Part shown: in pieces, positions 3,918 to 39,880 of the stretch
Position numbering within the stretch: the first letter of the stretch is position 1
How the letters are laid out: every line of letters begins with the position of its first letter
Assembly (NCBI GenBank): GCA_937967725.1
Contig: CALBSY010000298.1
Coordinates: forward strand, 1-41,786
Direction: 5' to 3'
DNA: 41,786 nt
Source of the DNA: an uncultured Alphaproteobacteria bacterium
GTDB lineage: Bacteria > Pseudomonadota > Alphaproteobacteria > Caulobacterales > Aquidulcibacteraceae
The notes under the pieces: generated by a model
The model's database searches: none
The model's input: the letters and a program-made list of their open reading frames with translations, nothing else
Told to the model about the DNA's origin: nothing
Translations under genes and position numbers: made by a program

Positions 3918-4152
3918 TGTTTCCTGCCTCCGTTCCGGCGATGGCTTCCAACAGACTTGCGACGTAAGCGAACTGAATGGCGGCATCGGCCCAATCATCG
4001 GTCGCCAGACAGCCGCGCGCGCAGGGCAGGCGCTTGTTCAGTTTACAGTGGTGATGCTTCCACACCGCGCGCGTGGCGATCTGCGGGATGGAGCGGGGAG
4101 GGGTGTTCTCCTCGAGAGCGAGGCTGGCATTGAGAGCTTGCCGCGTGTTCAT
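3904..4152 (-). CDS. Hypothetical protein
   Basis: ATGA overlap with ninB. Confidence 0.55.
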   Translation of the reverse strand: MNTRQALNASLALEENTPPRSIPQIATRAVWKHHHCKLNKRLPCARGCLATDDWADAAIQFAYVASLLEAIAGTEAGNNVAR

Positions 4153-4625
4153 ACTTCGCGCTCCAAATCTTCGCGCGCAGGCTCCGCCCCCGGCCCCGAT
4201 GGAGAGCCTGCGCGCGTCCCGCCTGACTGCGTAGCGGGAGCCTGTTGGGGGTCTGTGAAAACAACCCCATTCTCGGCGCCCCAGGCCTCAATGAGCGTAA
4301 TCATGTCGCTCATCTCCTCGGGACTGAACTCTGATGTGCGCGCGCCGAACGCGACAAAGCCGTTGCCATCCAGATTGGGCACAAGCTCTTGGCCGCGCAG
4401 CGAGGCGGAGAACAGATCCTTGAACTCGTCGCTCGAGCGCTTCTTGCCCGCCCATTCCTTCTGAGCGGCCACGTCATCAAGCAGGGCCCACATGCGCTTT
4501 GACTGCACGTTGGAGCGCACCGGCGGCTTGAACCAAAGCGTGTAGCCCACCGGGCAGGCGTCAAGCCACTTGCGCGCCTTGGCCCGGTCGCGGCCATTGT
4601 GGAGGGTGATCTTGGCGGGCTTCAT
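4149..4625 (-). CDS. ninB: NinB/Orf-family recombination protein
   Basis: RSNVQSKRMWALLDDVAAQ, VPNLDGNGFVAFGARTS, EMSDMITLIEAWGAENGV; adjacent to exonuclease and ERF genes. Confidence 0.88.
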   Translation of the reverse strand: MKPAKITLHNGRDRAKARKWLDACPVGYTLWFKPPVRSNVQSKRMWALLDDVAAQKEWAGKKRSSDEFKDLFSASLRGQELVPNLDGNGFVAFGARTSEFSPEEMSDMITLIEAWGAENGVVFTDPQQAPATQSGGTRAGSPSGPGAEPAREDLEREV

Positions 4626-5251
4626 GCCGCTTCCGCCTCCGCATAGTCGCGGCGCAGGCGCTTGATCGTATCGTCCACCTCGGCCAGAAACACCTCGACC
4701 TCGCGCTCAAGTTCAGTGATGACCTGCTGATCGCGGTACACGGTCGCGTGGAACATCCGCATGGCTTCGGGAAGGCGCGGGTCGAAAGACACGAAGTCGC
4801 AGAACTCGCGCCCGGTGCATGCCATCTGCCATTGCATCTGCAGCACATACTTTGCTGGAACGGTCGCGTTGAGCAGGGTGTCAATGTGGGTCGCGCTGTT
4901 CGGGCACTTGATCTCGACCAGGCCCTTGTCGCCAACCAGCCCATCGGGGGAGGCCCCAGACATGGCGATGCGCGGATGGTCGATGAAGGAAACCATGGTC
5001 ACGGTCTGGTCGGTGCGGAACTCATAGGCCGCGCGCGCCAGCGGTTCGTTCTCGACACCCCAGCGCATGGCGTCGTTCTGGTAGGTGTCGGCCGCCACGC
5101 CCGTCAGGCGCTCGCACACGAGCTGGGCGGCGTAGTTGGCCCGGGACGCGCCCCAGCCGGTTTTGGTTTTGGCCATGAGGTCAGCCACGCGCGAGGCCGT
5201 CACCTTGCCAAGACGCATTGCATGCCATTCGGGGGTGCCTTGCTCGATCAT
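4622..5251 (-). CDS. YqaJ/lambda-exonuclease family 5'-3' exonuclease
   Basis: QGTPEWHAMRLGKVTAS, GASPDGLVG, VEIKCP, QMQWQM, DFVSFDPRLP. Confidence 0.95.
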   Translation of the reverse strand: MIEQGTPEWHAMRLGKVTASRVADLMAKTKTGWGASRANYAAQLVCERLTGVAADTYQNDAMRWGVENEPLARAAYEFRTDQTVTMVSFIDHPRIAMSGASPDGLVGDKGLVEIKCPNSATHIDTLLNATVPAKYVLQMQWQMACTGREFCDFVSFDPRLPEAMRMFHATVYRDQQVITELEREVEVFLAEVDDTIKRLRRDYAEAEAA

Positions 5252-5991
5252 TGCGCGGGCTCCGCCTTCTTGGCCTTGCTGGCTTTCGCCTTGGCCTTTG
5301 CCTCAAGGGCCACGCGCGCATTCTCGAATTGCGACTGCCGCAGATCGGGAAGGCTCTCGACCTTGAAGTAGGCGCAGAATTTCTCGAGGTCGGCGCCGCC
5401 CTTGGAGGCCAAGTCCTGCAGGCGCTTGAGCTGGTCAGCGGAGATCGCAGCATCCCCGCCGGCCGCCCGGCCGTCATCGTCACCCTCGCTGTCCGCCAGC
5501 CCCAGCGCCAGCTTGAGCGTGTAGCGCTGGAGATAGGTGAGGGTGGAGGCGATCGCCTGGATTGCGTTCTTGTTGCCGCTGGTGTCGGCGCCGGCCGAGA
5601 GCGTGGTTTCCTCGCAATGTCCGTCCCGGTGCGAGAGGATGCACGTCACCGTGACGCTGCCGTTCTGTTGGCTGCGGTAGCGGTAGGAGAGGCCATGGCG
5701 CGCGAGCACAGGATCAACCGCCGCCGCGAACGCGCCGAGGTCCGCGTACTTGCTGTTGTGGCCCTTGCGGTTCTTCTTGATGACAGGGATTTCCGCCTTG
5801 GCGTCAGCGACGGCGGCGTCAAAGGTCTTGCGCGCCTGGTTGCGCTCATGGCGTTCCTGCAGGTCCATGAGCTTTTCGAGCACGCTCAGGTCGGCGCCGC
5901 GGTCCAGCGCGCGGGAAAGCATCTCCATGGGGGTCGCGGGAACGTGCGCGTGCTCCACCATGGTTGCGGGCAGGGTTTCTTGGTCAGCCAC
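5248..5991 (-). CDS. erf: ERF-family single-strand annealing protein
   Basis: KYADL, VTCILSHRDGH, QAIASTLTYLQRYTLKLALGL, DDDG. Confidence 0.92.
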   Translation of the reverse strand: MADQETLPATMVEHAHVPATPMEMLSRALDRGADLSVLEKLMDLQERHERNQARKTFDAAVADAKAEIPVIKKNRKGHNSKYADLGAFAAAVDPVLARHGLSYRYRSQQNGSVTVTCILSHRDGHCEETTLSAGADTSGNKNAIQAIASTLTYLQRYTLKLALGLADSEGDDDGRAAGGDAAISADQLKRLQDLASKGGADLEKFCAYFKVESLPDLRQSQFENARVALEAKAKAKASKAKKAEPAQ

Positions 5992-9041: not shown

Positions 9042-9296
9042 ATGGAAGAAAGCGTTGCCGATCTTGTCGCGCGGGCGCGCGCCTATGCCAAGGACGCTGG
9101 CCTCTCAGAGCAGACAGTCTCCGCAAAGCTGTTCGGCTCAGGCCATGCGCTGGATCAAATTTCGGCGGGAAAACGATCACTTACCTTTCGGGTGTTCAAC
9201 CGGGCCAGCGCCGAATTGCGCGTCATGGAGCGCAAGCTTGATGAGGCCAAGAAGGACAGGCGCGACGACAAGGCCAATAAGGTCGAGGTCGCGTAA
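9042..9296 (+). CDS. cro: Cro-like DNA-binding protein
   Basis: Position opposite cI; GLSEQTVSAKLFGSGHALDQISAGKRSLT HTH-like segment. Confidence 0.75.
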   Translation: MEESVADLVARARAYAKDAGLSEQTVSAKLFGSGHALDQISAGKRSLTFRVFNRASAELRVMERKLDEAKKDRRDDKANKVEVA

Positions 9297-9817
9297 TGGT
9301 GCGCGGCAACAACAGGGTAGGCCGGCTGATCCAGGCCACGATCAAGGTCGACCGGCGCGGATGCTGGATTTGGCAGGGCGGCAAGTTTGGCTCCGGGTAC
9401 GGCTGCCTCGTCATGGGCGGGAAGCAGTACGGGGCGCACCGCGCTTCCTACGAGGCTTTCGTTGGCCCGATCCCCGCCGGGATGCTCGTTTGCCACACCT
9501 GCGACGTTCCGGCGTGCGTGAACCCTAGCCACCTGTTCGCGGGCACTTACCGCGACAACGCGCAGGACATGATCCGCAAGGGGCGCCAGCGTCGCGGGCG
9601 GATTGGGCCGCTTTGGGTTGACCCGACTAGTTGCTCCTTCGTCAAGCTAACGTGGAACGATGTGCATGAAATCCGCGCATCGTCAGAGTCTCACCGCGCG
9701 CTTGCTGCGCGATTTCAGGTTCACATTAAAACCATTCGTCGCGTTCGCGCCGGTCGCACTTGGAAGCCACGAAACGCGAATAGCCCCCATTCCGATTTAG
9801 GGGAGGGGCGCGCGTGA
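9296..9817 (+). CDS. HNH endonuclease (homing-type) with C-terminal HTH
   Basis: GCWIWQG, GYG, AHRASY, VCHTCDVPACVNPSHL, DNAQDMIRKGR. Confidence 0.92.
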   Translation: MVRGNNRVGRLIQATIKVDRRGCWIWQGGKFGSGYGCLVMGGKQYGAHRASYEAFVGPIPAGMLVCHTCDVPACVNPSHLFAGTYRDNAQDMIRKGRQRRGRIGPLWVDPTSCSFVKLTWNDVHEIRASSESHRALAARFQVHIKTIRRVRAGRTWKPRNANSPHSDLGEGRA

Positions 9818-11989: not shown

Positions 11990-13402
11990 TTGACCAAATC
12001 CCTGCCACATAATTTGGAAGCGGAACAAGCACTGCTTGGGTCGCTGTTGTTCGACAACCGATTGCTCGAGCACGTCGGAGACCTGCGCGCCGAGCATTTT
12101 TTCGACCCTGTGCATGGTCGCATCTTCGCGGCGATCTCCGATGGCGTAGCGCAGGGCAGGCTTGTTGACGGGATAGCCCTCAAAGAGTGGGCGCAGCGCG
12201 ACCCCGGCGTCGTCCAGGTCGGCGGGGCGCGATACCTGATGATGCTGATGTCCTCCGCTGCGGCGATTACCCCGCAAACGCAGGCCTACGCCGACATGAT
12301 CCGCAGCCTGTCGCTCCGGCGCGCGATTGTCGGCGCTTGCCGCGACGCGGCGGCGCTGGCGATGGACCCGCCTGAGGACATGGACGCCGAGACCCTTCTG
12401 ATAGAGGCCCAGCGCTCCCTGAGCGGGCTTGGAGACGATGGCGGAGACGGGGAGGGGGCATGGCGCTCCGCCGCTGAGATAGCCCTGGCGGCCGTTGAGC
12501 GCGCCTACGCAGGCCAAGCCAAGGGGATCACCACCGGCCTGCCGAGCCTTGATGATTGCACGGGCGGGGGGCGGCCGGGCACGCTCTGGGTGATCGGCGG
12601 CGCTACGTCGATGGGCAAGTCCGTTGGCGGCCAGCAGCTCGCCGTGAACGTCGCTCGCAAAGGCTATGGCGTGGCCTACATCCACCTTGAGATGGATCAC
12701 GATGAGGTCGGGCTCCGGCTCGCCGCTGGCGTCGCCTACGAATACAAGCGCCGCAATGAGTGGGGCGCGCGCGCTAACCCCCATTATCTCGCGGCTGCGA
12801 ACCAAGCCCTGAAAGATGACCAATGGGTGCGCCTGCGGGACGCCGCCAAAAACGTCATGCCGAACCTCAAAATCTATGTGGACGATCGCCCAGGCCGCAC
12901 TGTGACGCAGATCGAATCCGCGGTGATGCGTCTTTTTCAGAAAATGCGCCGGGACGGGGTGACGCCCGGCCTCATCGTCGTTGACCACGAAGGCCTCATC
13001 GCCCCGGAGGGCAAGCACCCCTCCGAGCTGGAGGCCGCGCGCGCCCGCGCCAACCGCCTGAAAGACATGGCAAAGCGCCTAGGCGTTTGGACTGTGGCCC
13101 TCTCCCAGATCACCAAAGAGGGGAGCCGGGCGGACGGCGAGGAACGCCTGCCTCAGTCCACCGACCTCAACTACGGAAGCGCGCTCTCACAAGCCGCCCA
13201 CGTCGTCATCCTCATCCATCGGAAGGCCTACTACGCAGAACGAAAGCCGCATTCCGCCAGAACGGAGGAAGATATCAGGATGACTAAATCCCTCGAGACC
13301 ACGCTCGTCGTGGATAAAGCCCGCGGCGGACGCAGAGCCCACGTCGCCGCCCAAATGGACGTCGCCTCGGCCGTCCTCATTGAATCGGATGAGGCGCCAT
13401 GA
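11990..13402 (+). CDS. dnaB: Replicative DNA helicase, DnaB family
   Basis: LPHNLEAEQALLGSLL, Walker A GGATSMGKS, LEM, IVVDH, ALSQ, DKARGG; TTG start inferred. Confidence 0.95.
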   Translation: MTKSLPHNLEAEQALLGSLLFDNRLLEHVGDLRAEHFFDPVHGRIFAAISDGVAQGRLVDGIALKEWAQRDPGVVQVGGARYLMMLMSSAAAITPQTQAYADMIRSLSLRRAIVGACRDAAALAMDPPEDMDAETLLIEAQRSLSGLGDDGGDGEGAWRSAAEIALAAVERAYAGQAKGITTGLPSLDDCTGGGRPGTLWVIGGATSMGKSVGGQQLAVNVARKGYGVAYIHLEMDHDEVGLRLAAGVAYEYKRRNEWGARANPHYLAAANQALKDDQWVRLRDAAKNVMPNLKIYVDDRPGRTVTQIESAVMRLFQKMRRDGVTPGLIVVDHEGLIAPEGKHPSELEAARARANRLKDMAKRLGVWTVALSQITKEGSRADGEERLPQSTDLNYGSALSQAAHVVILIHRKAYYAERKPHSARTEEDIRMTKSLETTLVVDKARGGRRAHVAAQMDVASAVLIESDEAP

Positions 13403-13923
13403 GCAGTCTTGTGCATATTATCCCCCGCACGGAGCGCCCCGACTGGGCCGGCCCCGCATGGCCAGATTTCAGCGACGCCGACAAAACGCTGCTGAACGTC
13501 ATCTTCGACCTCCGCCTTAAGCGGTTAGACCATGCGGTGTTCGGCCGCCTGCTTGAGGCTTATGGTTTCGGACAGTTTGTGCTGGATCGGAAAGAGGCTG
13601 AGCGTGTCGCGGCCATGTTGGCGGATTGGGGGCGAAACGCCACGCTGAACAAGGTTGCGCTCTCAATCAAGCGGTTGGCGCGCTTTGGGCATATCAGCTC
13701 TGTCACCGAAGAGGTGTTCCGCCTAGGTATCGAACGCAAGGCCATAGCCAGAAAGCTCCGGCAGGAAGTTATGGAGCGCGACCAGTCAACCTGTCGGCTC
13801 TGCGGCGCAACAAGCAACCTGCAGATCGACCACATTCTTGCCCGCACAAAAGGCGGGGAGAACACAGCCGATAATCTGCAAGTCCTTTGTGTGACGTGCA
13901 ACGTCAGAAAGGGCAATGCATGA
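13399..13923 (+). CDS. HNH endonuclease with N-terminal helical (possibly wHTH) domain
   Basis: RDQSTCRLCG...IDHILARTKGGENTADNLQVLCVTCNVRKG. Confidence 0.88.
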   Translation: MSSLVHIIPRTERPDWAGPAWPDFSDADKTLLNVIFDLRLKRLDHAVFGRLLEAYGFGQFVLDRKEAERVAAMLADWGRNATLNKVALSIKRLARFGHISSVTEEVFRLGIERKAIARKLRQEVMERDQSTCRLCGATSNLQIDHILARTKGGENTADNLQVLCVTCNVRKGNA

Positions 13924-21573: not shown

Positions 21574-21608
21574 GAGGCTTCCTCCAACCAGTGAAGGAAG
21601 CTTTTTGC

Positions 21609-22505
21609 ATGTCAACTGAACCCGCGTCCCCGGCGCAAGCCGGCCAAGGCGCTGAAGGACAAGTCTCTCCTCCGGCGCAACCAAACCCGGAAGCCTCCGC
21701 AACCCCGCCCGAGCCGCCGCCGGAGCCGTTCTACAAATCGCTCAAGGACGAAACCTTGCGCGGCTACGCCGAACTCAAGGGCTACAAGCAGACCGATGGC
21801 GTGGCCTTCTCCGAGGCGCTGCTCAAATCCTACCAGAACCTCGAAAAGCTGCGCGGCGTTCCCGCCGAGCGGCTGCTGACGCTGCCTGAGAACTTGGAAG
21901 ATGCCGAGGCCATGGGCCCGATCCGCGAGCGGCTGGGCTTTGCTCCCCCGAAAGAGGCCAAGGAATACGGCTTCGCAACGGTCGAAGGGGTGGACCCCAA
22001 CCGCGCCACAGTGCTCGAGGGCCTGGCGCACAAGCACGGCGTTCCCGCCAAGATGGCGCAAGGCTTCTTCCAAGAGCTGGCGCAGCTTGAGAAAGCCGAG
22101 ATCACCGCGCAGGAGACCAAGTACGCCGAGGAACTGGCGGCTGAAAAGTCCAGCCTCAAGAGCGATCTGGGCGACAAGTGGGATGCGTTCCTGGAGACCG
22201 CCCGGCGCGCGCAGCGCCGGTTCGGGCTCGATGACGAAGGCATCGCCGCGCTCGAGGACTCGCTCGGCTATGCCAAGGCCATGCGCTACTTCGCCCAGGT
22301 GGGCGAGGCCATGGGCGAAGCCCCCGTCATCGGCGCGGAGAAAAAGGACTCGGCCTTCATGGGCCCCGAGGCCGCCAAGGTCCGCATCGCGGAACTCAAA
22401 TCCAACCAGGAATGGGTGGGCCGCTACCTGGCCGGCGACAAGGCTGCTCAGGCTGAAATGCGCCGCCTGCAGGAAATCGCACACCCCGGAGTTAAAACGT
22501 CATGA
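21609..22505 (+). CDS. Capsid scaffolding/assembly protein
   Basis: Pro/Ala-rich N-terminus, LLKSYQNLEKL, helical body; position before the capsid gene. Confidence 0.85.
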   Translation: MSTEPASPAQAGQGAEGQVSPPAQPNPEASATPPEPPPEPFYKSLKDETLRGYAELKGYKQTDGVAFSEALLKSYQNLEKLRGVPAERLLTLPENLEDAEAMGPIRERLGFAPPKEAKEYGFATVEGVDPNRATVLEGLAHKHGVPAKMAQGFFQELAQLEKAEITAQETKYAEELAAEKSSLKSDLGDKWDAFLETARRAQRRFGLDDEGIAALEDSLGYAKAMRYFAQVGEAMGEAPVIGAEKKDSAFMGPEAAKVRIAELKSNQEWVGRYLAGDKAAQAEMRRLQEIAHPGVKTS

Positions 22506-30062: not shown

Positions 30063-32438
30063 ATGGCCCGCGCACCCGGCATAGTCTCAATCCGCCAATA
30101 CAACCAGCAGAGCCGTCCTCAAGGGCGCGCGCGCCCCAAGGCCCCATTGGTCGAACAGCCCTTGGGCGAGGCCCACAACCTCATGGGCGATCTGGGCCAA
30201 GGGCTGCAGGCGGTCGGGGATTATTACGAGCACAAGGAAAACGTCGATCTGGCGGTGGAGCGTATCCGTCACGCTCGGGATGAGGACGATGCGCGGGCTT
30301 ATTCAGCCGCGGCTCTTGCCGACGCCACGGCGCGCTATGCCCAGCGCGCGCGCGAGATAGAGGCCGAGTCCCAGGACGGTTGGCGCGGGCTCACGGCCAA
30401 TTCGGATGCGGCGTTCAACGAGATCAATGCGGAGATCATCGGCGCCGCGCCGACCGAGGTTTCCAGAAACTTCGTCAGCCAGCACCTAGGCATCCTGCGC
30501 GCGCAAAGCATCGCCCGCCAGGCTGAGCGGGAAAACGATCTTCGCCGGAGCTGGCGCCGGGACACCATCGAAGCCAGCGCAACCGAGTGGGAGCGCATCC
30601 TTGTCACCGACCCCAGCCAATGGGCGCGCGCGCACGCGACATTGACGCAGACCATTGGGTCTATGACAGACATCACCGCCGATGATCGGCGCGATATGAC
30701 CGCGCGTGCGGCGGGCCGCATGGCCTACTTTGCCGTCGCCGGCATGGTCGAGGCCGACCCGCAAGCGGCGTTGCGCATGCTGCGCGGGGGCGTTGTGGAT
30801 GGCGATGCGGCGACCATCGGCCCGCAGATCGCCTCCATGTTCAACGCGACCATGACCTCTGGCCGGCGCACCGCCGAGCGCAATGCTGAGGTTGGGGGCG
30901 CGGCCAATTCGCTCCACCTCTCCGGCCGGGCGGCCGATATTTCAGTCCCGCCGCAATATCAGGGCATGGAGAGCGCGGCGATCGAAGCGGACGCGCGCCA
31001 GCGGCTCGAGGCGCAATTCCCAGGCATGCGCTTTACCGAAGTCATCTTCGAGGGCGACCATCTCCATGTCGGCTGGGAAGGGGGCGGGGAGGCGCAACGG
31101 CAGGAAGGCCCGGTGGCGCACCTCACGGCTGAGGATCATTTGCGCCTCATCAATGCGGCGCAGGCTGAGGTGAACCGCAGGGACAGCGAACAAAGGGCCA
31201 CGGCGCGCGATATTCTCAATGCGCAAACCCAATTGCTGCAACGCGACATAATCCCAAGCGAACCGCTTGACCCTGCGCTTGTGCAGTCGCTGTTCGGCGT
31301 GGACGTGGCCCAGGCCTACCTGGCCAATCTCGCCAGCGCAACGGCCAGCAATCAGTTGAGCAATCTGAGCATGGCGGATGTCGCGCAGGTGGCGGCGAGC
31401 GCCGTTTCTCCAGACCGAAGCGACACCGACAACCTTCTCACCCATGAATACCGGGAGGCAGCGGAACGCAATCTTCAGTCCCGCCGTGAGGATCCAGGCG
31501 GCTTCCTGCTGAACAATCGACGCATGCGCCACCCCGATTTCATGGGAAACCTTGGTGAAGCGGTGCGCAGCGGCGATTGGACAGCCATGCAGGGGGTGTT
31601 CCGTGATCGCGGGGCTGATGCGGTGGAGGCGCGCGCATCCGGCGCGGTCGAGCGCGCCGCCCCGCTGTCTCAGCCTGAGGCCCGAGCGCTGCGCTCGTGG
31701 CTTGATGGTCGCACGGCGCAAGAACGGTTGGCGTTCTTTTCGCAGGCCTCAGCGGCGATGAACCGCGAAGCCTACACGGCCATGATGACACAGATAGCGC
31801 CCGATGGCGGAGAGGTGCTGGCCTTTGCCGGCTTCGCCTATGGCGCTCCGATTGGCGGGCGCTTTGATGGGCCCACAGTTGCCCGCCGCTTGCTGGAGGG
31901 GGCCGAACTATTGCAGGGGCGGGACAGCGCAAGCGGCGAAGATCGCCAGCGTCGCGGGTCTGTCACGCTACCGAGCGTCGAGGATATGCGCCAGGAATGG
32001 CGCCGCCAGGTTGGAAGGCACGCCTATGCCGGGATGCCGGCGGACGTGGAAGAGCGGGCCTTTGGCGCGTTCAGGGCCTACTACGCTTCGCTTGCGAGGG
32101 AACGCGGCTTGACCAACACGACTGTTTCCATCGCGCTTGTGCGTGAGGCTGCAGCCGTTGCCAGCGGGGGCACCACCAATTGGAGTGGGCGCGAAACGCT
32201 GCTGCCGTGGGGGATGCAGGAGAGAGAGTTTGAAGCTGGCGTTCGCGCTGCCTTTGACCAAACCCCCGCGCTGCGCGGACGCAACCCGCGCTCCTTTGAC
32301 CTCACCGCCGTTGGCAATGGGGCTTACGCTGTGGAGGGGATGCGCCACCCAAACGGAAGCCCGGTGCAGATATTCATCAGGCCCAATAACCGGAAAACCT
32401 CGCCCAATTCCACAGTCGCCCCGCCGCGGGGGAACTGA
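30063..32438 (+). CDS. Internal virion/ejection protein (gp15-like) with M15-family peptidoglycan peptidase domain
   Basis: TSGRRTAERNAEVGGAANSLHLSGRAAD...EGDHLHVGW. Confidence 0.85.
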   Translation: MARAPGIVSIRQYNQQSRPQGRARPKAPLVEQPLGEAHNLMGDLGQGLQAVGDYYEHKENVDLAVERIRHARDEDDARAYSAAALADATARYAQRAREIEAESQDGWRGLTANSDAAFNEINAEIIGAAPTEVSRNFVSQHLGILRAQSIARQAERENDLRRSWRRDTIEASATEWERILVTDPSQWARAHATLTQTIGSMTDITADDRRDMTARAAGRMAYFAVAGMVEADPQAALRMLRGGVVDGDAATIGPQIASMFNATMTSGRRTAERNAEVGGAANSLHLSGRAADISVPPQYQGMESAAIEADARQRLEAQFPGMRFTEVIFEGDHLHVGWEGGGEAQRQEGPVAHLTAEDHLRLINAAQAEVNRRDSEQRATARDILNAQTQLLQRDIIPSEPLDPALVQSLFGVDVAQAYLANLASATASNQLSNLSMADVAQVAASAVSPDRSDTDNLLTHEYREAAERNLQSRREDPGGFLLNNRRMRHPDFMGNLGEAVRSGDWTAMQGVFRDRGADAVEARASGAVERAAPLSQPEARALRSWLDGRTAQERLAFFSQASAAMNREAYTAMMTQIAPDGGEVLAFAGFAYGAPIGGRFDGPTVARRLLEGAELLQGRDSASGEDRQRRGSVTLPSVEDMRQEWRRQVGRHAYAGMPADVEERAFGAFRAYYASLARERGLTNTTVSIALVREAAAVASGGTTNWSGRETLLPWGMQEREFEAGVRAAFDQTPALRGRNPRSFDLTAVGNGAYAVEGMRHPNGSPVQIFIRPNNRKTSPNSTVAPPRGN

Positions 32439-35400
32439 TGAGCGATTTCTTTGCGACAGGGCTGGACACAAACCAGGCGCTTCGGGATGCGGAGGCGCGC
32501 GAAGCGAGCCAGCCGGGGTTTTGGGGCAACCCGTTTAAGGGGGTAGGAGACGACATCGAGGCGGGCTTTGCCCGTGGGGGTGTTGGTCTAAACCGCCTTG
32601 CAATCCAAGCTGGTCGCTTTGCCGAGGATTTCGCGCGCGGCGTCACCGAACTTGACGACACCCCGTTCATCGAAGGCCAGCAGCGCCCCCGCGATAATTG
32701 GTGGGAGAACTTTTTCCGGTCCAATGAGGAATATTGGGCTGAGGAAATGCGGCGTAACGCGGTGGATCCCGCCACACGCTCGCAGGCCGCCAATCTGGTA
32801 GGTGGGCTTGCCAATGTGCTGACCACCTTTACGGCGACCACGCTGACGGCTGGGCCGCTGGGGCGGCTGTCTAATGTAGCCGGCGCCGGAGCGGCGGGCA
32901 CGGGCTTCGGACGCGAGACCCAAACCAGGCTCGAAAGCGAGGGCGTTCCTGCCGACCAGGCCCTTCAGGGCGGGGTTATTGAAGGCGGTTGGATGACCCT
33001 GATGGGCACGCTGCCGGTTTCGATTCCTGGCCGGCTCTGGCAGCGGGTCGCCTCTGGCGCGACGATCAATGCAGGCCTCGGCATGGGCATGCGCCGGTCG
33101 ATGGAGGATTACCTCAACAGCATCGATCGGCCCGACCTGGCCGAGCAATACCGCTGGCTTGATCCGCAGGCGACGACAGTTGATGTCCTATTCGGCGCGG
33201 TGTTTGGAGGCATGTTCGGGCGGCGCGGGGGCGCTGCCGCTGTTCCTGAGTTTGCGCCAGACGGCACGCCGGTAGAGCGCGCGCCCAGCGCTGCGCCTGT
33301 AGCTGAAGCCAAAGAATCCCCCATGGAGCGGGATCCGCTCACGCCAGAAGAGCATGTCGCGCTTACCGACCTGGGCGCTGCAGCTCTTATCGAGGCGGAT
33401 AACATTGCACGGGAAACAGCTTTCGGGATTCCTGAAAACCCGGAAAGCGCGCAATGGCAGCGTCGGTCTATCGAGCGCATGGAAGAGCAGATCGCGCGCG
33501 ATGAGCCGGTCGATCTTGGCCCTGTGCCGGAGGGGATTGGGTTCGTTCCGCTTCGGCCGGATGAATACGACGCCGTTGGTGTCGAGAATATCGCCGCTGA
33601 GATTGAAGCCGCCAGCGCAACGCTCGACGGCGCTGACCGTGTTTCCCTAGTCGATTGGGTTCGCCGGCAAGGGGAGGTGCGCGACGCGCGCGGGCGGGTG
33701 ATCCAGCGCGGCGGCATCCGCGACGATCGCGGCGATATTGCCGGCGGGGCCAGCGACGGACGCCAAGGCTTCGCCAGCCTCATCAGCCCGACCGGGCGCA
33801 CCATTGATGATCTCGTGGTCAAGGCCTGGGAGGATGGCTTTTTCCCAGATCATGCCTCACCGGAAACGATCACAGCCAATGACTTCATCCAGGCTGTTGA
33901 TCTGGATGCGCGTGAGCCGGGCTCCATCACCGCGGACGTGGGAGGGGCGCTGGATGTGGCCGACGCGCGCTCAATCCTTCGCTCTTACCGGGAGCGCGGG
34001 ATAGACACCAGCCTCAGGGGGCAAGCCCTCAGAGAGGCGGTGCGCCTGAGTACGTTTGACGGGCAATGGGATGCCGCGGTTCTCTCTTTTGCGGATGAGC
34101 TCGCCGCTCAAGGCTTCGGTGATGTGGCGCAGCGTATCCGCGAGATGCGCCAGGCCCGTGGTGATGCATCGGGCCCCGACGAAACCTTGTTCTCCATGGG
34201 CCCGAGCCGGCGGCGGGGGATGGATTCTTGGAGAGGGAATGAACGGTTCTATGATGACCGTTTGAATGACCAGGTGCGCAAGGGGCTGCGCGCGCCCATC
34301 GGGGATATGCTGTTCTCGCTGGGGCCGCGCCGCTGGCAAGCGGCCCTGCGCGATCCTGAGACCGGGGAAATCTACACCGGGGCCAACCATGGCGAAGCGC
34401 TCAACGCCGCCCCTGAGGCCCGCCATGACGCATTGCTGGCGGCCGAAGAGAACTCCGGCTTCCTTTCCAACGGAAAGTTTGTCAGCCGGGAGCAAGCGCT
34501 GGCTGAGATGAGCGATGCGCTGTTCTCCCTACGCAACCCGTTCTACTCCGCGGTTGAGCGCGTTGTCGCCAGCTCGAAAACCGCGCGCGCGCCCGGCGCT
34601 CAATGGTGGGCTACCATCTCCAAAGCCCAAGGGGTCAAGCGCGAGGAGCTTGAATGGATCGGGCTGGCGGATTGGCTTAAGGCTCAAGAGGGCTCCATCT
34701 CCAGAGAGGATGTCCTTGCCTTCGTTCAACAGAACGGGGTGAGGGTGGAAGAGACTGTGCTGGGGGGTGATGCGGTTGATCCGGCCCTGCAACAGCGGCT
34801 CTTGCCTTTGATTGAGGAGCGCGAGCGGCTGGAACGGTCACGCGACAACATGAGCGCCGGCCCGGAATGGGACCAAACCCGGGCGCGCATCCTTGCGCTC
34901 AGCGACGAAATCCTCCCGCTACAGCAACAGATCTCGGAGCAATCACGCGCGAACCAACCCAAATGGTCCCAATACACCCTCCCCGGAGGGGAGAACTATA
35001 GGGAGGTGCTGCTTAGGCTGCCGGAAAGCGAGCGCCCCGTAGCGCCGTGGGTGGCTCAAGAGAACCCGCGTTTCCCGGGAGACTTCGAGATTGAACGCAG
35101 AGCCACGGAAGGCTCTGCCGCAACCGGGGAAACGATCGGCGGCTATCGCTCGCTGGAGGAGGCGCAGGCGGCGGCTGCCAAGCGAAATGCATCCAATGTT
35201 AAGACCACGAACAATCCGAACGACTTCCGCTCCTCCCACTTCGACCAACCCAACATCCTCGCCCACGTCCGGTTTAACGAGCGCACGGATGCGCAAGGAA
35301 GGCGCACGCTGTTCATTGAGGAAGTGCAAAGCGATTGGCACCAACGGGGGCGGGAGCACGGCTACAAGGGCGGCGCCGACATTCAGGCCATCGAGGCTAA

Positions 35401-38400
35401 GTTGCGCGACGCGGGCATTGCGCAATCGGTCATTGACCTGCTTAAGCGGCAGGACAACGGCGTTCCGCCCGATGCCTATGTGAAAATCCTGGACACGCTG
35501 ACGCACCAAGAACTTACGCGGCTGCGCGCCGAAACGGGCACGCAATTGGCCCCCAACGCCCCCTTCAAGAACAACGCCTGGGCCTCGCTCGCCATGAAAC
35601 GGATGATCCGTTGGGCTAGTGAGAACGGGTTCGATCAGATCGCTTGGACGCGGGGGGAACATCAGATCAGCCGCTTCAATCTAAGTGAAGCGGTTGGCGA
35701 AAAGATGGACGCCAAAAAGATCAGCGACGATCGCTATCTGGTGCAGATGCGCAATGTTCGCGCGCGGGATATGCTGGCCCGCAATGGGCTGGGCGAAGCC
35801 CACAACGCCGACCAAGAGATCATCTTCATGTCGCGCCAGCAAATGCGCGAGGCGTTTGGCCCAGAAATCTCCAAGCGGATCATTGACGACACCGAAGACG
35901 GCAAGCGTATCCGGCTAAAGGGCGACGACCTCCGCGTCGGCGGCGAAGGCATGCGCGCCTTCTACGACCGCATCCTCCCAAATATAGCCAATGACCTTGG
36001 GAAGAAGTACGGGGCGAGGGTGGGTGAAGCGCAAATTCCTCTTCCGTCCAACGCCGCCGAAACGTCGGCCTACAAGCCGAGCGACTATCGCGTCGAAGAG
36101 CGCGATGGTGGCTGGATCGTTACGCAGGACCGTTCGCGCGCGCCTCACACCCCCGTTTTCGCAACAAAAGCTGAAGCGGAAGCGTTGCGTGACAAATACC
36201 GCGCGCAATTCAATCCGATTCCAGAAACCGTCCACTCCCTCCCCATCACCCCCGAAATGCGGGAAGCCGCTATGGAGGGGCAGGCGCTTTTTGCGCTGGG
36301 GGATGGGAGGGGGCGGTCCTCTGTCGAGGCTGTGCGCGCGGAGGCCGTTGCCGATCTCGGCGCGGATTGGTCCGCGCTCGAGCGCGCGAGCAACGCGGTG
36401 CTGGTCGAAAACGTATCGGACATTCCGCGCGATGGCTTCGCAGACATCCCGCGCAACGTGAAGGCGGTTCATTTCCGCAGCACCGGGCAGACCTATTTCG
36501 TGGCGGGAAATATCCGCCCGGGGGAAATGCGCGGCCTCATCCTGCATGAGATCGGCGTCCACCACGGCATGCCCAAGATGCTTGGTAAGCGCGGGTTTGC
36601 CGAGGTGCAGCGCCAGGTCGCGCGCATGGCGGATGAAGGTCATCCGGCCGTCGAGGAAGCCCGCTACTGGGCCGAGCGCTACAGTGCTCACGATGGCCAG
36701 GTGCCAGAGGAAACGGTCGCGTATCTGATCGAGAACCACGCAGACCTTCCCCTCGTCACCCGCATCCTCTCCCGCATCCGCCAGTGGCTCATCAAGACCT
36801 TTGGCTCCTCCTTTGGGATGCGCCTGACTGTGGATGACATTCGCGCGCTTGCGGTCACTTCCTTGCGCCGTGTGGCCGAGCAAGCCCGCCGCCAGAGCGC
36901 GGACATTACCCCGATAGATTCCCTGCTGTTCTCTCAAGGGGATGGTCCCGACGCGGGACCATCAGATGTGCGGCCGTTGCGCGACGCGACGAGTGCGTAT
37001 CGCACCACAGATACGCCGATCCCATCCAATGAAGTCGGGCAGGAGATCACGCCGCCGGGCGGCTGGGACAGCTACGGCGGCAACCTGATGTCCAAGCACA
37101 TGCTGCGGACGCTTGGCCCAGAGGGCGCGCTGCGCGAGGTGGAGAGCATTTTCGCGCAGCCCAATTTTCAGCGGCTGCGGGAGCGGGCAGGCGACTTCGG
37201 GGCGTGGGAAGCGGCGCGCCGCGACATCCACGCTGCACACCGTGATTTCGTGGCCCAACAGCGGCGCGCAAGCCTCTCAGTCGTTGGTCCTGACGGAGGC
37301 AGCGTAGGCGGGGTGATCGAACCGACCTCAATCACCGGCGCCGAGCTCAGCCCCTCGATCCGCACGGTCATTGACGACTTCTTCGGGGAGGGCGCGTCGG
37401 CGCGCGCGCTGGAGGATGAATCCGGCGACGGCATGATGGAACTGGCGGAGATCATGCTGGCGCGCGGGGAGACCGCCGAGCAGCAAGCCGCCGTTGCTTC
37501 TATGGAGGAATGGGCGCGCGCTCAACGCGCTCAGCCCGGCACGATGCGCAACGTCACCCCGGCTCGTGGGCCTAATGACGGCAGCGGTGGAGAGGGCCCG
37601 CTGTTCTCGTTCGGTGGACGCTTGGCGCGCACGGCCAACGATGACACCCTGCGCCTGGCGCGCTTGCTCGAGCGCGAGGGCAAGGACGAGTGGTTCATCT
37701 GGCACAACACCGGCTGGGCGCGCGGGGTGGACAAGCAATGGCGCTTTGAGATCCCCGATGAGGGCGCGGCCTTTGCCGTTCCCTGGAACACGCTGCGCCG
37801 CCGCAAGGGCGCGACCCCTCTACCCGAAGCGTTTGACCATCCCGCTCTCTTTGAAGCCTACCCGCAACTGCTCTCGGTCAAGGTGAAGATCGTTTCCGAG
37901 GAAGGCGTCGGCGGAACGTGGAGCCCCGAGGAGGGCGTCATTGAGCTTAGCCCGCACGGCGGCGCCGATACAGCGCGCCGCACGATGCTGCACGAAATCC
38001 AGCACGCGATCCAAGACATCGAGGGCTTCGCGCCCGGTACGCACTGGGATGAGGTTTCGCCGCAACGCGCGAAGGCCGCGCGCGAAGATGCCGTGCGCCG
38101 TATCCAGGGTTACAAATGGTTGAGCGAGAAAACGCGGACGGAACTGATCGCCGCCTTGGATGCTCGCCGCGAAGCCTACCGTCACGCCTCCGGCGAAGCT
38201 GAGGCGCGCGCTGTGGAGACGCGCGCCCACTTTGGCGACCTGAAAGCGATGCCCCCGGCCGAGGCGGCGCGCGAGGCTGTCATAAATCCAGCGATGCTCT
38301 GGAACCCGCGCCGCCGCAATTGGGAAGTTTTCCGCGGCGCCGCAAGTGAGCCGCCGCGTGGACAAAATCCCCCAAATGTGGTAAGAGGCAAGCGTGACCC

Positions 38401-39880
38401 AATCGAAAGCCCCGAATACCAAGACAGACTTCGCGCCGTTCAAGACGGCCTTGAAGGCCAACGACAAGGTAGCGCTGGCGAAGCTGAGGGCGGAGCGGCC
38501 GGAGGCGTTCGCGGCCTGGCTCGAAACGATGGAGCGGGTCGATCCTCTGGAGGCGATGCGGGAAGCGGCCAAGGGCCAGCCCGAGCCGTAAGAGAGATTA
38601 TCTCGGTTTCGGCCATCAAGCTCAGCACCAAGCAGACGCAATCCGATTTCGGCCGCTATCGCGCGGAGATAGACACCCCGGTCGCAAGCGAGGCTGACGC
38701 CATCCTGCAGGCAGGGACCGGCGCCGATGGCGGGCCCACCCGCATGGATTTCGATCTGATCGACGGATCCAACCCGAAGGAAACCCGTTTGCCTGGTGTG
38801 CATCTGGCCTTCACCCGCGTCAATGACGGGGCCAAGGGGCAGGGCGTCGGGGTTTGGTTCTATCGCCAAATCATCGAATGGGCCGACCGGCAGAGGCTCC
38901 CTGTCTATTCGGACAGCCTTTCGGTTTCGCGCGAGGCCCAGCGCATCTACGCGGCCCTGGAAAAGCGCGGCTACAAGGTTGAGCGCGTAGCCGACACCAT
39001 GCGCGACCCCGACGATGGCGCGCTCATCAGCGTGGACGGCCGCCCCGTTTACAGGGTTTCGCTCCGCGATCCGATCGCTGAGCCTTTGGAGGGCGCTCCG
39101 CTCCCGCATGGCGATTACAGAATTGACGGCGAAACTCTGCGCGACCGGCAGGCCCGCTTTGACGAAGCCAAGCGCCGCCAGGCCGAATACGATGCGCTCC
39201 CCCCGGCTGAGCAAGCCTTGAGGGACGATCCCGAAATGATGTTCTCGATGGGGCCGGCCCGGCGCAGAATGTACGCGCGCGAGGCCATGGAGAACGCGCG
39301 CCGCGAACAGGAAACCGCCCGTCGCGTGGCGCTCGGAGCCCAAGCCGCGGCCAAGTGCGCGGCCCGCCATGGCGTCTCCTGGGCCACGGCTGCAGCTCCG
39401 GTGACGCTGCAATCGACCGCCTATTCAGCGCTGGGGCGCGGGCTGGGTTTGGCTGCTTCCGTTCCGGCTGGCATCGCCGCCGCCCCCATACTGGCCAACC
39501 GCGCGCGCTGGGACGCCGACCCCATCGGGCAAGGCATCATGGCAGGCCGCCGCGCCGGCCTTGAGGCGGGGCTCGATGATCCTTCCCATGACCCCGACCG
39601 GGTTGCAGGCGAGGGCGTCTCGCTTAAGGACGTGGCTGCCCCATCAGGAACGGCCCTGGATGGCCCGCCGGTGGCGCCGCCGCTCTCAGTGGAAAATCCT
39701 TCACGCAACCTGATGACCGACTTCCACGCGCCTCCTGAGGCGTTTGAGGGGCGGCTTGGCTTTAGCCCGCCGAGCGCGCGCGATCTTAAACTCCAAGACG
39801 CTGTTGAAACCGACCCAGACCCCGCCCGCGATCTGATACAATTGTTTGATCAGCTGGTTAACCCGGAGCCGGATCAGTGA
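32438..39880 (+). CDS. Giant (2480 aa) ejection/polyvalent protein with two zincin motifs, an LPD23-like module and a GNAT module
   Basis: HEIGVHHG; TGWARGVDKQWRFEIPD...HEIQHAIQDIEGF...GEAEAR; KGQGVG...EAQRIY; position among the ejection genes. Confidence 0.88.
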   Translation: MSDFFATGLDTNQALRDAEAREASQPGFWGNPFKGVGDDIEAGFARGGVGLNRLAIQAGRFAEDFARGVTELDDTPFIEGQQRPRDNWWENFFRSNEEYWAEEMRRNAVDPATRSQAANLVGGLANVLTTFTATTLTAGPLGRLSNVAGAGAAGTGFGRETQTRLESEGVPADQALQGGVIEGGWMTLMGTLPVSIPGRLWQRVASGATINAGLGMGMRRSMEDYLNSIDRPDLAEQYRWLDPQATTVDVLFGAVFGGMFGRRGGAAAVPEFAPDGTPVERAPSAAPVAEAKESPMERDPLTPEEHVALTDLGAAALIEADNIARETAFGIPENPESAQWQRRSIERMEEQIARDEPVDLGPVPEGIGFVPLRPDEYDAVGVENIAAEIEAASATLDGADRVSLVDWVRRQGEVRDARGRVIQRGGIRDDRGDIAGGASDGRQGFASLISPTGRTIDDLVVKAWEDGFFPDHASPETITANDFIQAVDLDAREPGSITADVGGALDVADARSILRSYRERGIDTSLRGQALREAVRLSTFDGQWDAAVLSFADELAAQGFGDVAQRIREMRQARGDASGPDETLFSMGPSRRRGMDSWRGNERFYDDRLNDQVRKGLRAPIGDMLFSLGPRRWQAALRDPETGEIYTGANHGEALNAAPEARHDALLAAEENSGFLSNGKFVSREQALAEMSDALFSLRNPFYSAVERVVASSKTARAPGAQWWATISKAQGVKREELEWIGLADWLKAQEGSISREDVLAFVQQNGVRVEETVLGGDAVDPALQQRLLPLIEERERLERSRDNMSAGPEWDQTRARILALSDEILPLQQQISEQSRANQPKWSQYTLPGGENYREVLLRLPESERPVAPWVAQENPRFPGDFEIERRATEGSAATGETIGGYRSLEEAQAAAAKRNASNVKTTNNPNDFRSSHFDQPNILAHVRFNERTDAQGRRTLFIEEVQSDWHQRGREHGYKGGADIQAIEAKLRDAGIAQSVIDLLKRQDNGVPPDAYVKILDTLTHQELTRLRAETGTQLAPNAPFKNNAWASLAMKRMIRWASENGFDQIAWTRGEHQISRFNLSEAVGEKMDAKKISDDRYLVQMRNVRARDMLARNGLGEAHNADQEIIFMSRQQMREAFGPEISKRIIDDTEDGKRIRLKGDDLRVGGEGMRAFYDRILPNIANDLGKKYGARVGEAQIPLPSNAAETSAYKPSDYRVEERDGGWIVTQDRSRAPHTPVFATKAEAEALRDKYRAQFNPIPETVHSLPITPEMREAAMEGQALFALGDGRGRSSVEAVRAEAVADLGADWSALERASNAVLVENVSDIPRDGFADIPRNVKAVHFRSTGQTYFVAGNIRPGEMRGLILHEIGVHHGMPKMLGKRGFAEVQRQVARMADEGHPAVEEARYWAERYSAHDGQVPEETVAYLIENHADLPLVTRILSRIRQWLIKTFGSSFGMRLTVDDIRALAVTSLRRVAEQARRQSADITPIDSLLFSQGDGPDAGPSDVRPLRDATSAYRTTDTPIPSNEVGQEITPPGGWDSYGGNLMSKHMLRTLGPEGALREVESIFAQPNFQRLRERAGDFGAWEAARRDIHAAHRDFVAQQRRASLSVVGPDGGSVGGVIEPTSITGAELSPSIRTVIDDFFGEGASARALEDESGDGMMELAEIMLARGETAEQQAAVASMEEWARAQRAQPGTMRNVTPARGPNDGSGGEGPLFSFGGRLARTANDDTLRLARLLEREGKDEWFIWHNTGWARGVDKQWRFEIPDEGAAFAVPWNTLRRRKGATPLPEAFDHPALFEAYPQLLSVKVKIVSEEGVGGTWSPEEGVIELSPHGGADTARRTMLHEIQHAIQDIEGFAPGTHWDEVSPQRAKAAREDAVRRIQGYKWLSEKTRTELIAALDARREAYRHASGEAEARAVETRAHFGDLKAMPPAEAAREAVINPAMLWNPRRRNWEVFRGAASEPPRGQNPPNVVRGKRDPIESPEYQDRLRAVQDGLEGQRQGSAGEAEGGAAGGVRGLARNDGAGRSSGGDAGSGQGPARAVREIISVSAIKLSTKQTQSDFGRYRAEIDTPVASEADAILQAGTGADGGPTRMDFDLIDGSNPKETRLPGVHLAFTRVNDGAKGQGVGVWFYRQIIEWADRQRLPVYSDSLSVSREAQRIYAALEKRGYKVERVADTMRDPDDGALISVDGRPVYRVSLRDPIAEPLEGAPLPHGDYRIDGETLRDRQARFDEAKRRQAEYDALPPAEQALRDDPEMMFSMGPARRRMYAREAMENARREQETARRVALGAQAAAKCAARHGVSWATAAAPVTLQSTAYSALGRGLGLAASVPAGIAAAPILANRARWDADPIGQGIMAGRRAGLEAGLDDPSHDPDRVAGEGVSLKDVAAPSGTALDGPPVAPPLSVENPSRNLMTDFHAPPEAFEGRLGFSPPSARDLKLQDAVETDPDPARDLIQLFDQLVNPEPDQ

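What the first reader, a model, noticed from the sequence alone, without database searches (positions are those of the whole stretch)
34187..39256. Giant ejection protein built as a cassette array punctuated by a repeated (L/M)F(S/A) motif: possible self-processing injected polyprotein
Seen: seven in-frame motifs at apparent domain boundaries: TLFSMGP (L at 34187), MLFSLGP (34310), ALFSLRN (34520), ALFALGD (36287), LLFSQGD (36926), PLFSFGG (37601) and MMFSMGP (39239). Three are also similar as DNA (TGTTCTCNNTGGGNCCG). Between them lie distinct modules: a 41-aa peptide, a 70-aa GF..GKFVSREQA domain, a 589-aa domain, a zincin (HEIGVHHG...EETVA), an unknown region, and an LPD23-like zincin (HEIQH) followed by a GNAT. 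Established: phage polyvalent proteins combine such domains and are thought to be delivered early to counter host defences. Inference: the motif is a cleavage site for an embedded metallopeptidase that releases effectors after injection, and/or a recombination joint for swapping cargo between a conserved N- and C-terminal chassis.
Basis: partly seen in the sequence, partly recalled or inferred. Interest (0 to 1): 0.8.

Follow-up and report, generated by a model that had tools for sequence, protein, structure and literature searches.

The report
Protease-matched junction code in phage megaprotein
A 2,480-residue protein that this phage likely injects carries a three-residue tag at its module joints, and across about 150 relatives the tag's last letter (Ser or Gln) follows the type of zinc-protease-like domain in the same chain, so the tags likely mark where that domain cuts, although no cut has been observed.

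Summary
Confirmed. ORF 32438-39880 (2,480 aa) sits in the core-protein slot of an epsilon15/phiV10-like phage. It holds seven [LM]F[SA] motifs at the stated positions (1.4 expected) and none occur in 11 other ORFs.

In same-chassis homologues, modules are gained, lost and reordered, with breakpoints concentrated at the motif (57 of 154 within 10 aa; 13.8 expected).

The main result: among about 150 giant relatives the last residue tracks the resident zincin group. Proteins with an HExxxH zincin like ours use x-F/Y-S. Proteins with an "STxxHE" zincin use x-F/Y-Q. They agree in 74 of 76 proteins, with the label scattered over the cargo tree. The switch appears at the ends of three different cargo modules, within one shared chassis, and in cultured phage AF.

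Corrections: the 41-aa peptide is a deleted helix-turn-helix relic. The HEIGVH zincin (18 of 18 relatives), not the LPD23 zincin (4 of 18), is the candidate cutter. One junction lacks the motif.

Best reading: self-cleavage sites (0.6). No cut is shown, zincin type is partly confounded with lineage, and N4 vRNAP stays intact despite its HExxH. This is a new variant of known polyvalent proteins that makes a 2017 prediction testable.

The parts
32438..39880 (+). Giant core/ejection-type polyvalent protein, 2,480 aa (P0001)
   Evidence: lies between phrog_992 and phrog_684 genes as phiV10 p19 does
32438..34186 (+). N-terminal chassis (aa 1-583), homologous to phrog_1145 and phiV10 p19
   Evidence: phrog_1145 E 2.4e-14; phiV10 p19 E 3e-9; shared by family members
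34187..34195 (+). Motif 1, LFS (chassis to cargo junction)
   Evidence: x[FY]S at this junction in 17 of 17 correctly registered family members, the 18th row misregistered
34196..34309 (+). Relic of an internally deleted sigma70-region-4 HTH module (the 41-aa peptide)
   Evidence: aligns to start and end of the module in P0096, P0004, P0007; Pfam of relatives
34310..34318 (+). Motif 2, LFS
   Evidence: breakpoint cluster at aa 613
34319..34519 (+). ~70-aa mobile module of unknown function; found at four different places in four family members
34520..34528 (+). Motif 3, LFS; predicted disordered
   Evidence: pLDDT under 50; breakpoint at aa 701
34529..36286 (+). Module C (~586 aa), one predicted folding unit with a GNAT-like core and invariant H, R and EExQSDW residues; no Pfam family
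   Evidence: Z about 9, not decisive; absent from several family members
36287..36295 (+). Motif 4, LFA; at the very end of module C, partly ordered in that model
   Evidence: pLDDT block 79, under 50; breakpoints at aa 1283-1285
36296..36925 (+). HExxxH zincin-like domain (H1370, E1371, H1375, E1425): candidate processing enzyme
   Evidence: present in 18 of 18 family members; residues invariant in 20 rows; model pLDDT 78; weak zincin fold matches
36926..36934 (+). Motif 5, LFS, followed by a second linker type GPDAG
   Evidence: pLDDT about 56; breakpoint at aa 1492
36935..37600 (+). Variable cargo region of unknown function
   Evidence: almost no coverage by the 155 other proteins
37601..37609 (+). 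Motif 6, LFS, directly before the first LPD23 residues
37610..38332 (+). LPD23 plus HEIQH zincin; behaves as cargo
   Evidence: PF18838; in 4 of 18 family members; also found in Gln-type proteins
38360..39238 (+). Linker plus probable GNAT module; its upstream junction lacks the canonical motif in this protein
39239..39247 (+). Motif 7, MFS (cargo to C-terminal chassis junction)
   Evidence: relatives P0010, P0011, P0012 insert extra modules here
39248..39877 (+). C-terminal chassis with CAARHG and a ~150-aa extension holding one hydrophobic segment

Best explanation
The motif is likely the recognition and cutting site of the protein's own HExxxH zincin-like domain, which would free the cargo modules from each other and from the ejection-protein chassis. 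Shown: the motif sits at module junctions; modules are swapped and reordered there; the zincin keeps its predicted metal ligands; the motif's last residue (Ser versus Gln) follows the zincin group present in the same chain. Inferred: the protein is packaged and injected (from gene position); the zincin is active; it cuts at the motif. Unknown: which bond is cut, and whether cutting happens in the head or after injection. Cargo exchange by recombination near these junctions is likely a consequence: an incoming module works only if it lands in frame with tags the resident enzyme reads.
For: Breakpoints among 16 same-chassis proteins: 57 of 154 within 10 aa of a motif, random mean 13.8, maximum 26 in 1000 draws. 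LF is the top dipeptide at 568 alignment ends without presupposing a motif (dominated by module C). 147 of 156 giants carry HExxH or HExxxH. Upstream of module C (161 sites): group 1 zincin Q 28, S 0, neither 18; group 0 (ours) Q 1, S 24, neither 26. Downstream sites not next to a zincin: group 1 Q in 10 of 10; others S 20, Q 0, other residue 13 of 33. Whole proteins, zincin-proximal parts masked: group 1 [LM][FY]Q 83 versus 29.4 expected and S 32 versus 32.1; others S 147 versus 69.8 and Q 54 versus 56.5. ART-type ends and LPD23 starts switch the same way. 74 of 76 proteins agree, and the label changes 19-27 times on the module C tree. Within one shared ~750-aa C-terminal chassis, group 1 members show LFQ/LYQ at junctions and group 2 members P0063, P0078, P0085 do not. 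Cultured phage AF gp16 (group 1) has LDQ before LPD23 and LNQ before its zincin; RS-PII-1 gp12 (group 0) has RLS and RYS around its cargo. Chassis-only phiV10 p19 and BcepC6B gp16 have no HExxH and no motif array. Stand-alone module C proteins without HExxH have S or Q after LF in 10 of 44, against 61 of 96 in giants with it.
Against: No cleavage data exist for this family. Zincin group is largely nested in chassis type, so another lineage-specific partner could drive the pattern. Independent contrasts on well-supported branches are only 4-5 to 0 (p 0.06-0.125). Exceptions: P0075 and P0121 have Q without group 1; P0024 has S or A with it. About half of the upstream sites show neither form by the strict rule. 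87 of 154 breakpoints lie more than 25 aa from a motif. The aa ~1975 junction has no motif, and several relatives have a degenerate or missing motif after the zincin. GQPL[F/A] persists in stand-alone module C without HExxH, and motif 4 is partly ordered in the model, so LF there may be structural. N4 vRNAP carries an HExxH domain yet was solved as recombinant full-length protein (PMC13434306, passages); N4 vRNAP, ArdC and TraC1 are described as unprocessed (PMC5512222). The zincin fold match is weak (Z 5-6). Motif patterns were widened after seeing the data.
Confidence: 0.6

Rival explanations
1. The motif is bound but not cut: a docking, compaction or threading signal read by the zincin-like domain or by a lineage-specific part of the packaging/ejection machine, helping a 270-kDa chain pack and pass the tail module by module.
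For: N4 vRNAP stays intact, and its zincin-containing region is needed for encapsidation (PMC5512222; PMC13434306). Zincin group and chassis are largely nested.
Against: The predicted catalytic Glu and metal ligands are kept in 18 of 18 family members. The tag differs between zincin groups inside one shared chassis, which argues against an outside reader.
Confidence: 0.2
2. The motif is only a recombination joint: short DNA homology used by the phage's own single-strand annealing system, with the peptide a by-product and Ser/Gln forms homogenised within each lineage.
For: Three copies are 72-83% alike over 29 nt. Identical codons at 39 of 76 same-residue pairs against 28 expected (pairs not independent). 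All six motif serines are TCN (87 of 136 gene-wide). The window encodes Erf-like, RecE-like and NinB proteins. A second repeated linker P[DN][AG]G flanks sub-cassettes (31 versus 4.3 expected).
Against: Synonymous positions vary among copies and relatives. Deletion relics in P0001, P0007 and P0014 keep both flanking motifs, whereas crossing over between two repeats would leave one. In the near-identical pair P0002/P0055 the downstream swap point lies about 12 residues before the motif. Conservation narrows to residue identity (L-x-S or L-x-Q) across distant phages.
Confidence: 0.12
3. The motif is cut by another protease: a head-maturation protease of the phage or a host protease.
For: ORF 21591-22505 weakly matches a PHROG labelled protease (phrog_458, E 2e-6). 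Head proteases cutting short motifs in ejection proteins are known for giant myoviruses (search listing only, PMC10052503).
Against: No motif in the capsid, portal or other core proteins of the window. The tag follows the in-chain zincin group.
Confidence: 0.05
4. The motif is a structural cap at domain ends with no signalling role.
For: GQPLF is conserved in stand-alone module C and partly ordered in the model.
Against: Unrelated domains end or begin with the same tag, and the same domain switches tag with its host protein. Motifs 3 and 5 are predicted disordered.
Confidence: 0.03

Closest known systems
Phage-type polyvalent proteins with a zincin-like MPTase (Iyer et al. 2017, PMC5512222)
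   Same: Large virion-operon protein joining unrelated domains (LPD23, probable GNAT, ART-PolyVal in relatives) around an MPTase. The paper describes an HEXXXH subset and predicts autoproteolytic release of domains.
   Different: In what I read (abstract, parts 2 and 3 of 14, keyword passages) no junction motif, cut site or motif-to-MPTase match is given. Its online supplementary alignments were not seen.
epsilon15/phiV10/BcepC6B core (ejection) proteins, phrog_1145
   Same: Same gene slot, homologous N-terminal domain and a similar C-terminal ending.
   Different: phiV10 p19 (600 aa) and BcepC6B gp16 (763 aa) have no zincin and no motif array; here about 1,700 aa of cargo is inserted.
Coliphage N4 vRNAP gp50 and phi24B gp47
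   Same: Giant ejected proteins with an HExxH or MuF-C metallopeptidase domain (PMC13434306 passages; bioRxiv 10.64898/2026.04.10.717836 section 5 and passages).
   Different: N4 vRNAP was solved intact. For gp47 the authors suggest peptidoglycan degradation and report no processing in what I read. I did not test these proteins for motifs.
Viral polyproteins cut by their own protease at repeated short motifs (recalled, e.g. 3C-like Q/S-G sites)
   Same: Works like: one chain, an embedded protease, repeated junction sites matched to that protease.
   Different: Different enzyme class and host domain; cutting here is inferred only.

Membership tests
Phage polyvalent proteins (Iyer 2017) | Several functionally unrelated domains in one large chain | tested here: met
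   LPD23, two zincins, GNAT-like modules; modules vary across relatives
Phage polyvalent proteins (Iyer 2017) | Encoded in a portal-terminase virion operon | tested here: met
   terminase, portal, capsid, tail tube and core genes upstream
Phage polyvalent proteins (Iyer 2017) | Catalogued polyvalent-associated domain above its cut-off | tested here: met
   PF18838 58.3 bits, cut-off 27
Phage polyvalent proteins (Iyer 2017) | Packaged and injected with the DNA | not testable with these tools
   inferred from gene position only
Zincin-like MPTase | HExxH or HExxxH plus a downstream Glu ligand | tested here: met
   H1370, E1371, H1375, E1425 invariant in 20 rows; kept in 18 of 18 family members
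Zincin-like MPTase | Three-stranded sheet plus helices of zincin fold | tested here: inconclusive
   model has three strands and the expected helices; best structural matches are zincins but Z only 5-6, rmsd 4-6 A; no Foldseek hit at E 0.001
epsilon15/phiV10-type core protein (phrog_1145) | Homologous N-terminal domain and synteny between phrog_992 and phrog_684 | tested here: met
Self-processing polyprotein | Repeated site at domain junctions | tested here: met
   one junction lacks it
Self-processing polyprotein | Site specificity matched to the embedded protease | tested here: inconclusive
   74 of 76 concordant, but independent contrasts p 0.06-0.125 and partial confounding with chassis
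Self-processing polyprotein | Demonstrated cleavage by the embedded enzyme | not testable with these tools
   needs bench work

The most novel reading that the evidence does not exclude
Phage polyvalent proteins are true self-processing polyproteins with a protease-specific junction code: each zincin lineage reads its own tag (x-F/Y-Ser for the HExxxH group, L-x-Gln for the STxxHE group, others elsewhere), cargo domains are re-tagged when they move between phages, and the code lets cut sites and released effectors be predicted from sequence across thousands of phage giants.
Probability: 0.5. Interest if true: 0.85.

Novelty: new variant of a known kind. Interest (0 to 1): 0.66.

Why it matters
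Self-processing of polyvalent proteins by their metallopeptidase was predicted in 2017. I found no report of cut sites in my searches (most subscription papers are not covered). The motif gives exact candidate sites, names which of two zincins should cut, and yields a sharp swap prediction (Ser versus Gln). A cultured phage of Pseudomonas putida (AF) carries the Gln form and can be tested. If true, it explains how very large injected proteins release many separate activities and how cargo stays interchangeable, and it gives a rule for splitting unannotated phage giants into domains.

Tried and rejected
Complex prediction of the zincin with a 35-aa peptide around motif 6 and zinc returned no answer (score 0.02, mark 0.32) and is not used either way.

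Direct locus searches with single proteins in viral contigs found one and no relatives. The zincin alignment matched none of 60 related genomes searched. Sequence searches of solved structures found nothing useful for the zincin or module C. Foldseek gave no hit at E 0.001 for either model. The Atlas held no entry for the unknown region.

The idea that stand-alone module C ends exactly at LF, mimicking a cut product, was rejected: it runs on 10-35 residues in most. The LPD23-linked zincin as cutter was rejected. An apparent loss of the Glu ligand in P0005, P0012 and P0014 was rejected: EAGAY keeps a Glu at the same offset in P0005, and P0012 and P0014 show the same EAGAY. Alignment A2 of full-length proteins was misregistered and not used.

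Rows dropped before counts: sites without an anchor; 57 of 133 tree rows lacking one of the two traits; five misregistered LPD23 hits and unassigned P0068; P0021.

Full report
Setting. The window is one whole contig of a 75%-complete genome bin and reads as a phage: repressor, Erf/RecE/NinB recombination genes, O-like initiator and DnaB, then terminase, portal, capsid, tail tube and core genes. The finding lies in ORF 32438-39880 (2,480 aa, P0001), between a phrog_992 gene and a phrog_684 gene whose best relatives are phiV10/epsilon15-like phages. The phiV10 gene in this slot, p19, is 600 aa, matches the N-terminal domain (E 3e-9) and has neither an HExxH nor a motif array; BcepC6B gp16 likewise. 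So P0001 is a core-protein chassis with about 1,700 aa of inserted cargo. Packaging and injection are inferred from this position.

Observation. All seven motifs are at the stated coordinates and are the only [LM]F[SA] matches: 7 against 1.38 expected, reached in 2 of 2000 shuffles, and 0 in 11 other ORFs. Three copies are 72-83% alike over 29 nt. LPD23 passes its Pfam cut-off starting at motif 6. The GNAT rests on weak hits in relatives.

Do motifs mark boundaries? Searches gave 156 giant proteins, 16 of them with the same two chassis ends and 18 counting two partial ones. Their modules are gained, lost and reordered: module C lies before the zincin in P0001 and after it in P0011 and P0013, and the 70-aa module occupies four different places. 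Among the 16, 57 of 154 breakpoints fall within 10 aa of a motif (random mean 13.8, maximum 26) and 70 of 95 motif matches have a breakpoint within 25 aa. 87 of 154 breakpoints lie further than 25 aa away; by eye these are variable loops or degenerate tags. The first junction has x[FY]S in 17 of 17 registered rows. AlphaFold models put motifs 3 and 5 in low-confidence linkers outside the folded domains; motif 4 is disordered in the zincin model but partly ordered (block pLDDT 79) at the end of module C. Module C folds as one unit with a GNAT-like core (Z about 9, not decisive). One junction of P0001, near aa 1975, is a swap point with no canonical motif. The 41-aa peptide is the two ends of a deleted HTH module; P0007 and P0014 hold similar relics, each keeping both flanking motifs.

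Link to the zincin. 147 of 156 giants carry HExxH or HExxxH (the query included our zincin, so part of this is selection). I grouped the zincins by sequence similarity of 170-aa windows (not a phylogeny, not mapped to the 12 published clades). Group 0 is the HExxxH type of P0001; group 1 has STxxHExGH. Upstream of module C, group 1 proteins show Q 28, S 0, neither 18; group 0 proteins Q 1, S 24, neither 26. At downstream sites not adjacent to a zincin, group 1 gives Q in 10 of 10 and other groups S 20, Q 0, other 13. Over whole proteins with zincin-proximal parts masked, the enrichment is reciprocal: group 1 Q 83 versus 29.4 expected, S 32 versus 32.1; others S 147 versus 69.8, Q 54 versus 56.5. 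ART-type ends read Q in 6 of 7 group 1 cases, and S 20, Q 1, other or unparsed 13 in other groups. The residue before LPD23 is S in 5 of 5 group 0 proteins and Q in 7 of 7 instances in six group 1 proteins; five misregistered hits and one unassigned protein were dropped. The LPD23-linked zincin occurs with either tag and in only 4 of 18 family members, while the HExxxH zincin is in 18 of 18 with its ligands kept, so the latter is the candidate reader.

Kinship control. On trees of module C without its flanks, the zincin label changes 27 times (FastTree, 114 labelled rows) or 19 times (IQ-TREE, 76 rows; at least 6 forced by well-supported branches), and the tag agrees in 74 of 76 proteins. Independent pairs on supported branches go 4-5 to 0, p 0.06-0.125, which falls short of significance. 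Zincin group is mostly nested within chassis type. In one mixed cluster, proteins sharing about 750 C-terminal residues at 26-41% identity differ in zincin group, and only the group 1 members show LFQ/LYQ at junctions. Two cultured phages outside the set fit: AF gp16 (group 1) has LDQ and LNQ, with a non-aromatic middle residue, and RS-PII-1 gp12 (group 0) has RLS and RYS. Exceptions are P0075, P0121 and P0024. Stand-alone module C proteins without HExxH keep GQPL[F/A] but show S or Q after LF in only 10 of 44, against 61 of 96 in giants (the stand-alone set is redundant).

Mechanism. The simplest account of a tag that follows an in-chain protease-like domain is that the domain reads it, and intact catalytic residues suggest it cuts (0.6). 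The bond and timing are open. Binding without cutting stays possible (0.2), given that N4 vRNAP has an HExxH domain and was solved full length (PMC13434306, passages). A DNA-only joint (0.12) has some support from codon identity (39 of 76 pairs versus 28 expected) and the phage's annealing genes, but synonymous variation and two-motif relics argue against it as the sole cause.

Prior knowledge. Iyer et al. 2017 (PMC5512222; abstract, parts 2-3 of 14 and keyword passages) define the family, note an HEXXXH subset, predict autoproteolysis and list unprocessed counter-examples; I saw no junction motif there, and did not see its online supplement. The phi24B preprint (section 5 and passages), the P1 paper PMC9024508 (passages) and the ejection-protein review PMC8954989 (passages) give no such motif in what I read. 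Searches listed no paper describing it. Eight earlier notes of this scan report comparable junction tags in other phage giants; they are unchecked and are not counted as support, and they show the idea is not unique to this window.

Verdict. The junction code matched to zincin type appears undescribed in the literature I could search, and turns an old prediction into a direct test. Interest 0.66; new variant of a known kind.

Noticed in passing
window 34529-36286 (module C): A very widespread ~590-aa module with no Pfam family, invariant H, R and EExQSDW residues and a predicted GNAT-like core with large insertions; 965 shorter relatives among 7996 candidates scored. Its activity is unknown.
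   Followed up: partly
protein P0009, inside module C (about aa 790-1140): An insertion of about 350 aa that looks intein-like by eye (recalled features); the Pfam scan listed no intein family.
   Followed up: no
window 36947-36958 and 37289-37300; family members: A second repeated linker, P[DN][AG]G, flanks small sub-cassettes after the zincin: 31 copies against 4.3 expected in 18 proteins.
   Followed up: partly
proteins P0063, P0078, P0085, P0056, P0082, P0037: Other protein-specific junction tags appear by eye (MG[MN], MPG, YA, FSDT), suggesting more than two codes.
   Followed up: no
window 34196-34309; family members: Most relatives carry a sigma70-region-4 HTH module as first cargo; it is deleted in the window's protein.
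   Followed up: yes
window 39430-39877: About 150 aa, with one hydrophobic segment, extend beyond the CAARHG at which phiV10 p19 ends; the extension is shared by the family.
   Followed up: partly
window 30063-32438: The upstream core protein has a Peptidase_M15 (cell-wall peptidase-type) domain at aa 263-349.
   Followed up: no
window 4149-5991, 9296-9817, 13399-13923: NinB, RecE-like exonuclease and Erf-like annealing genes, plus HNH endonuclease genes; no integrase among the 40 ORFs scanned, and the contig ends inside the last gene.
   Followed up: no
L032 7998-9164: A contig in a Methanolobus-labelled genome bin matches both the HExxxH zincin and the LPD23 region; it could be an archaeal virus or a binning error.
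   Followed up: no
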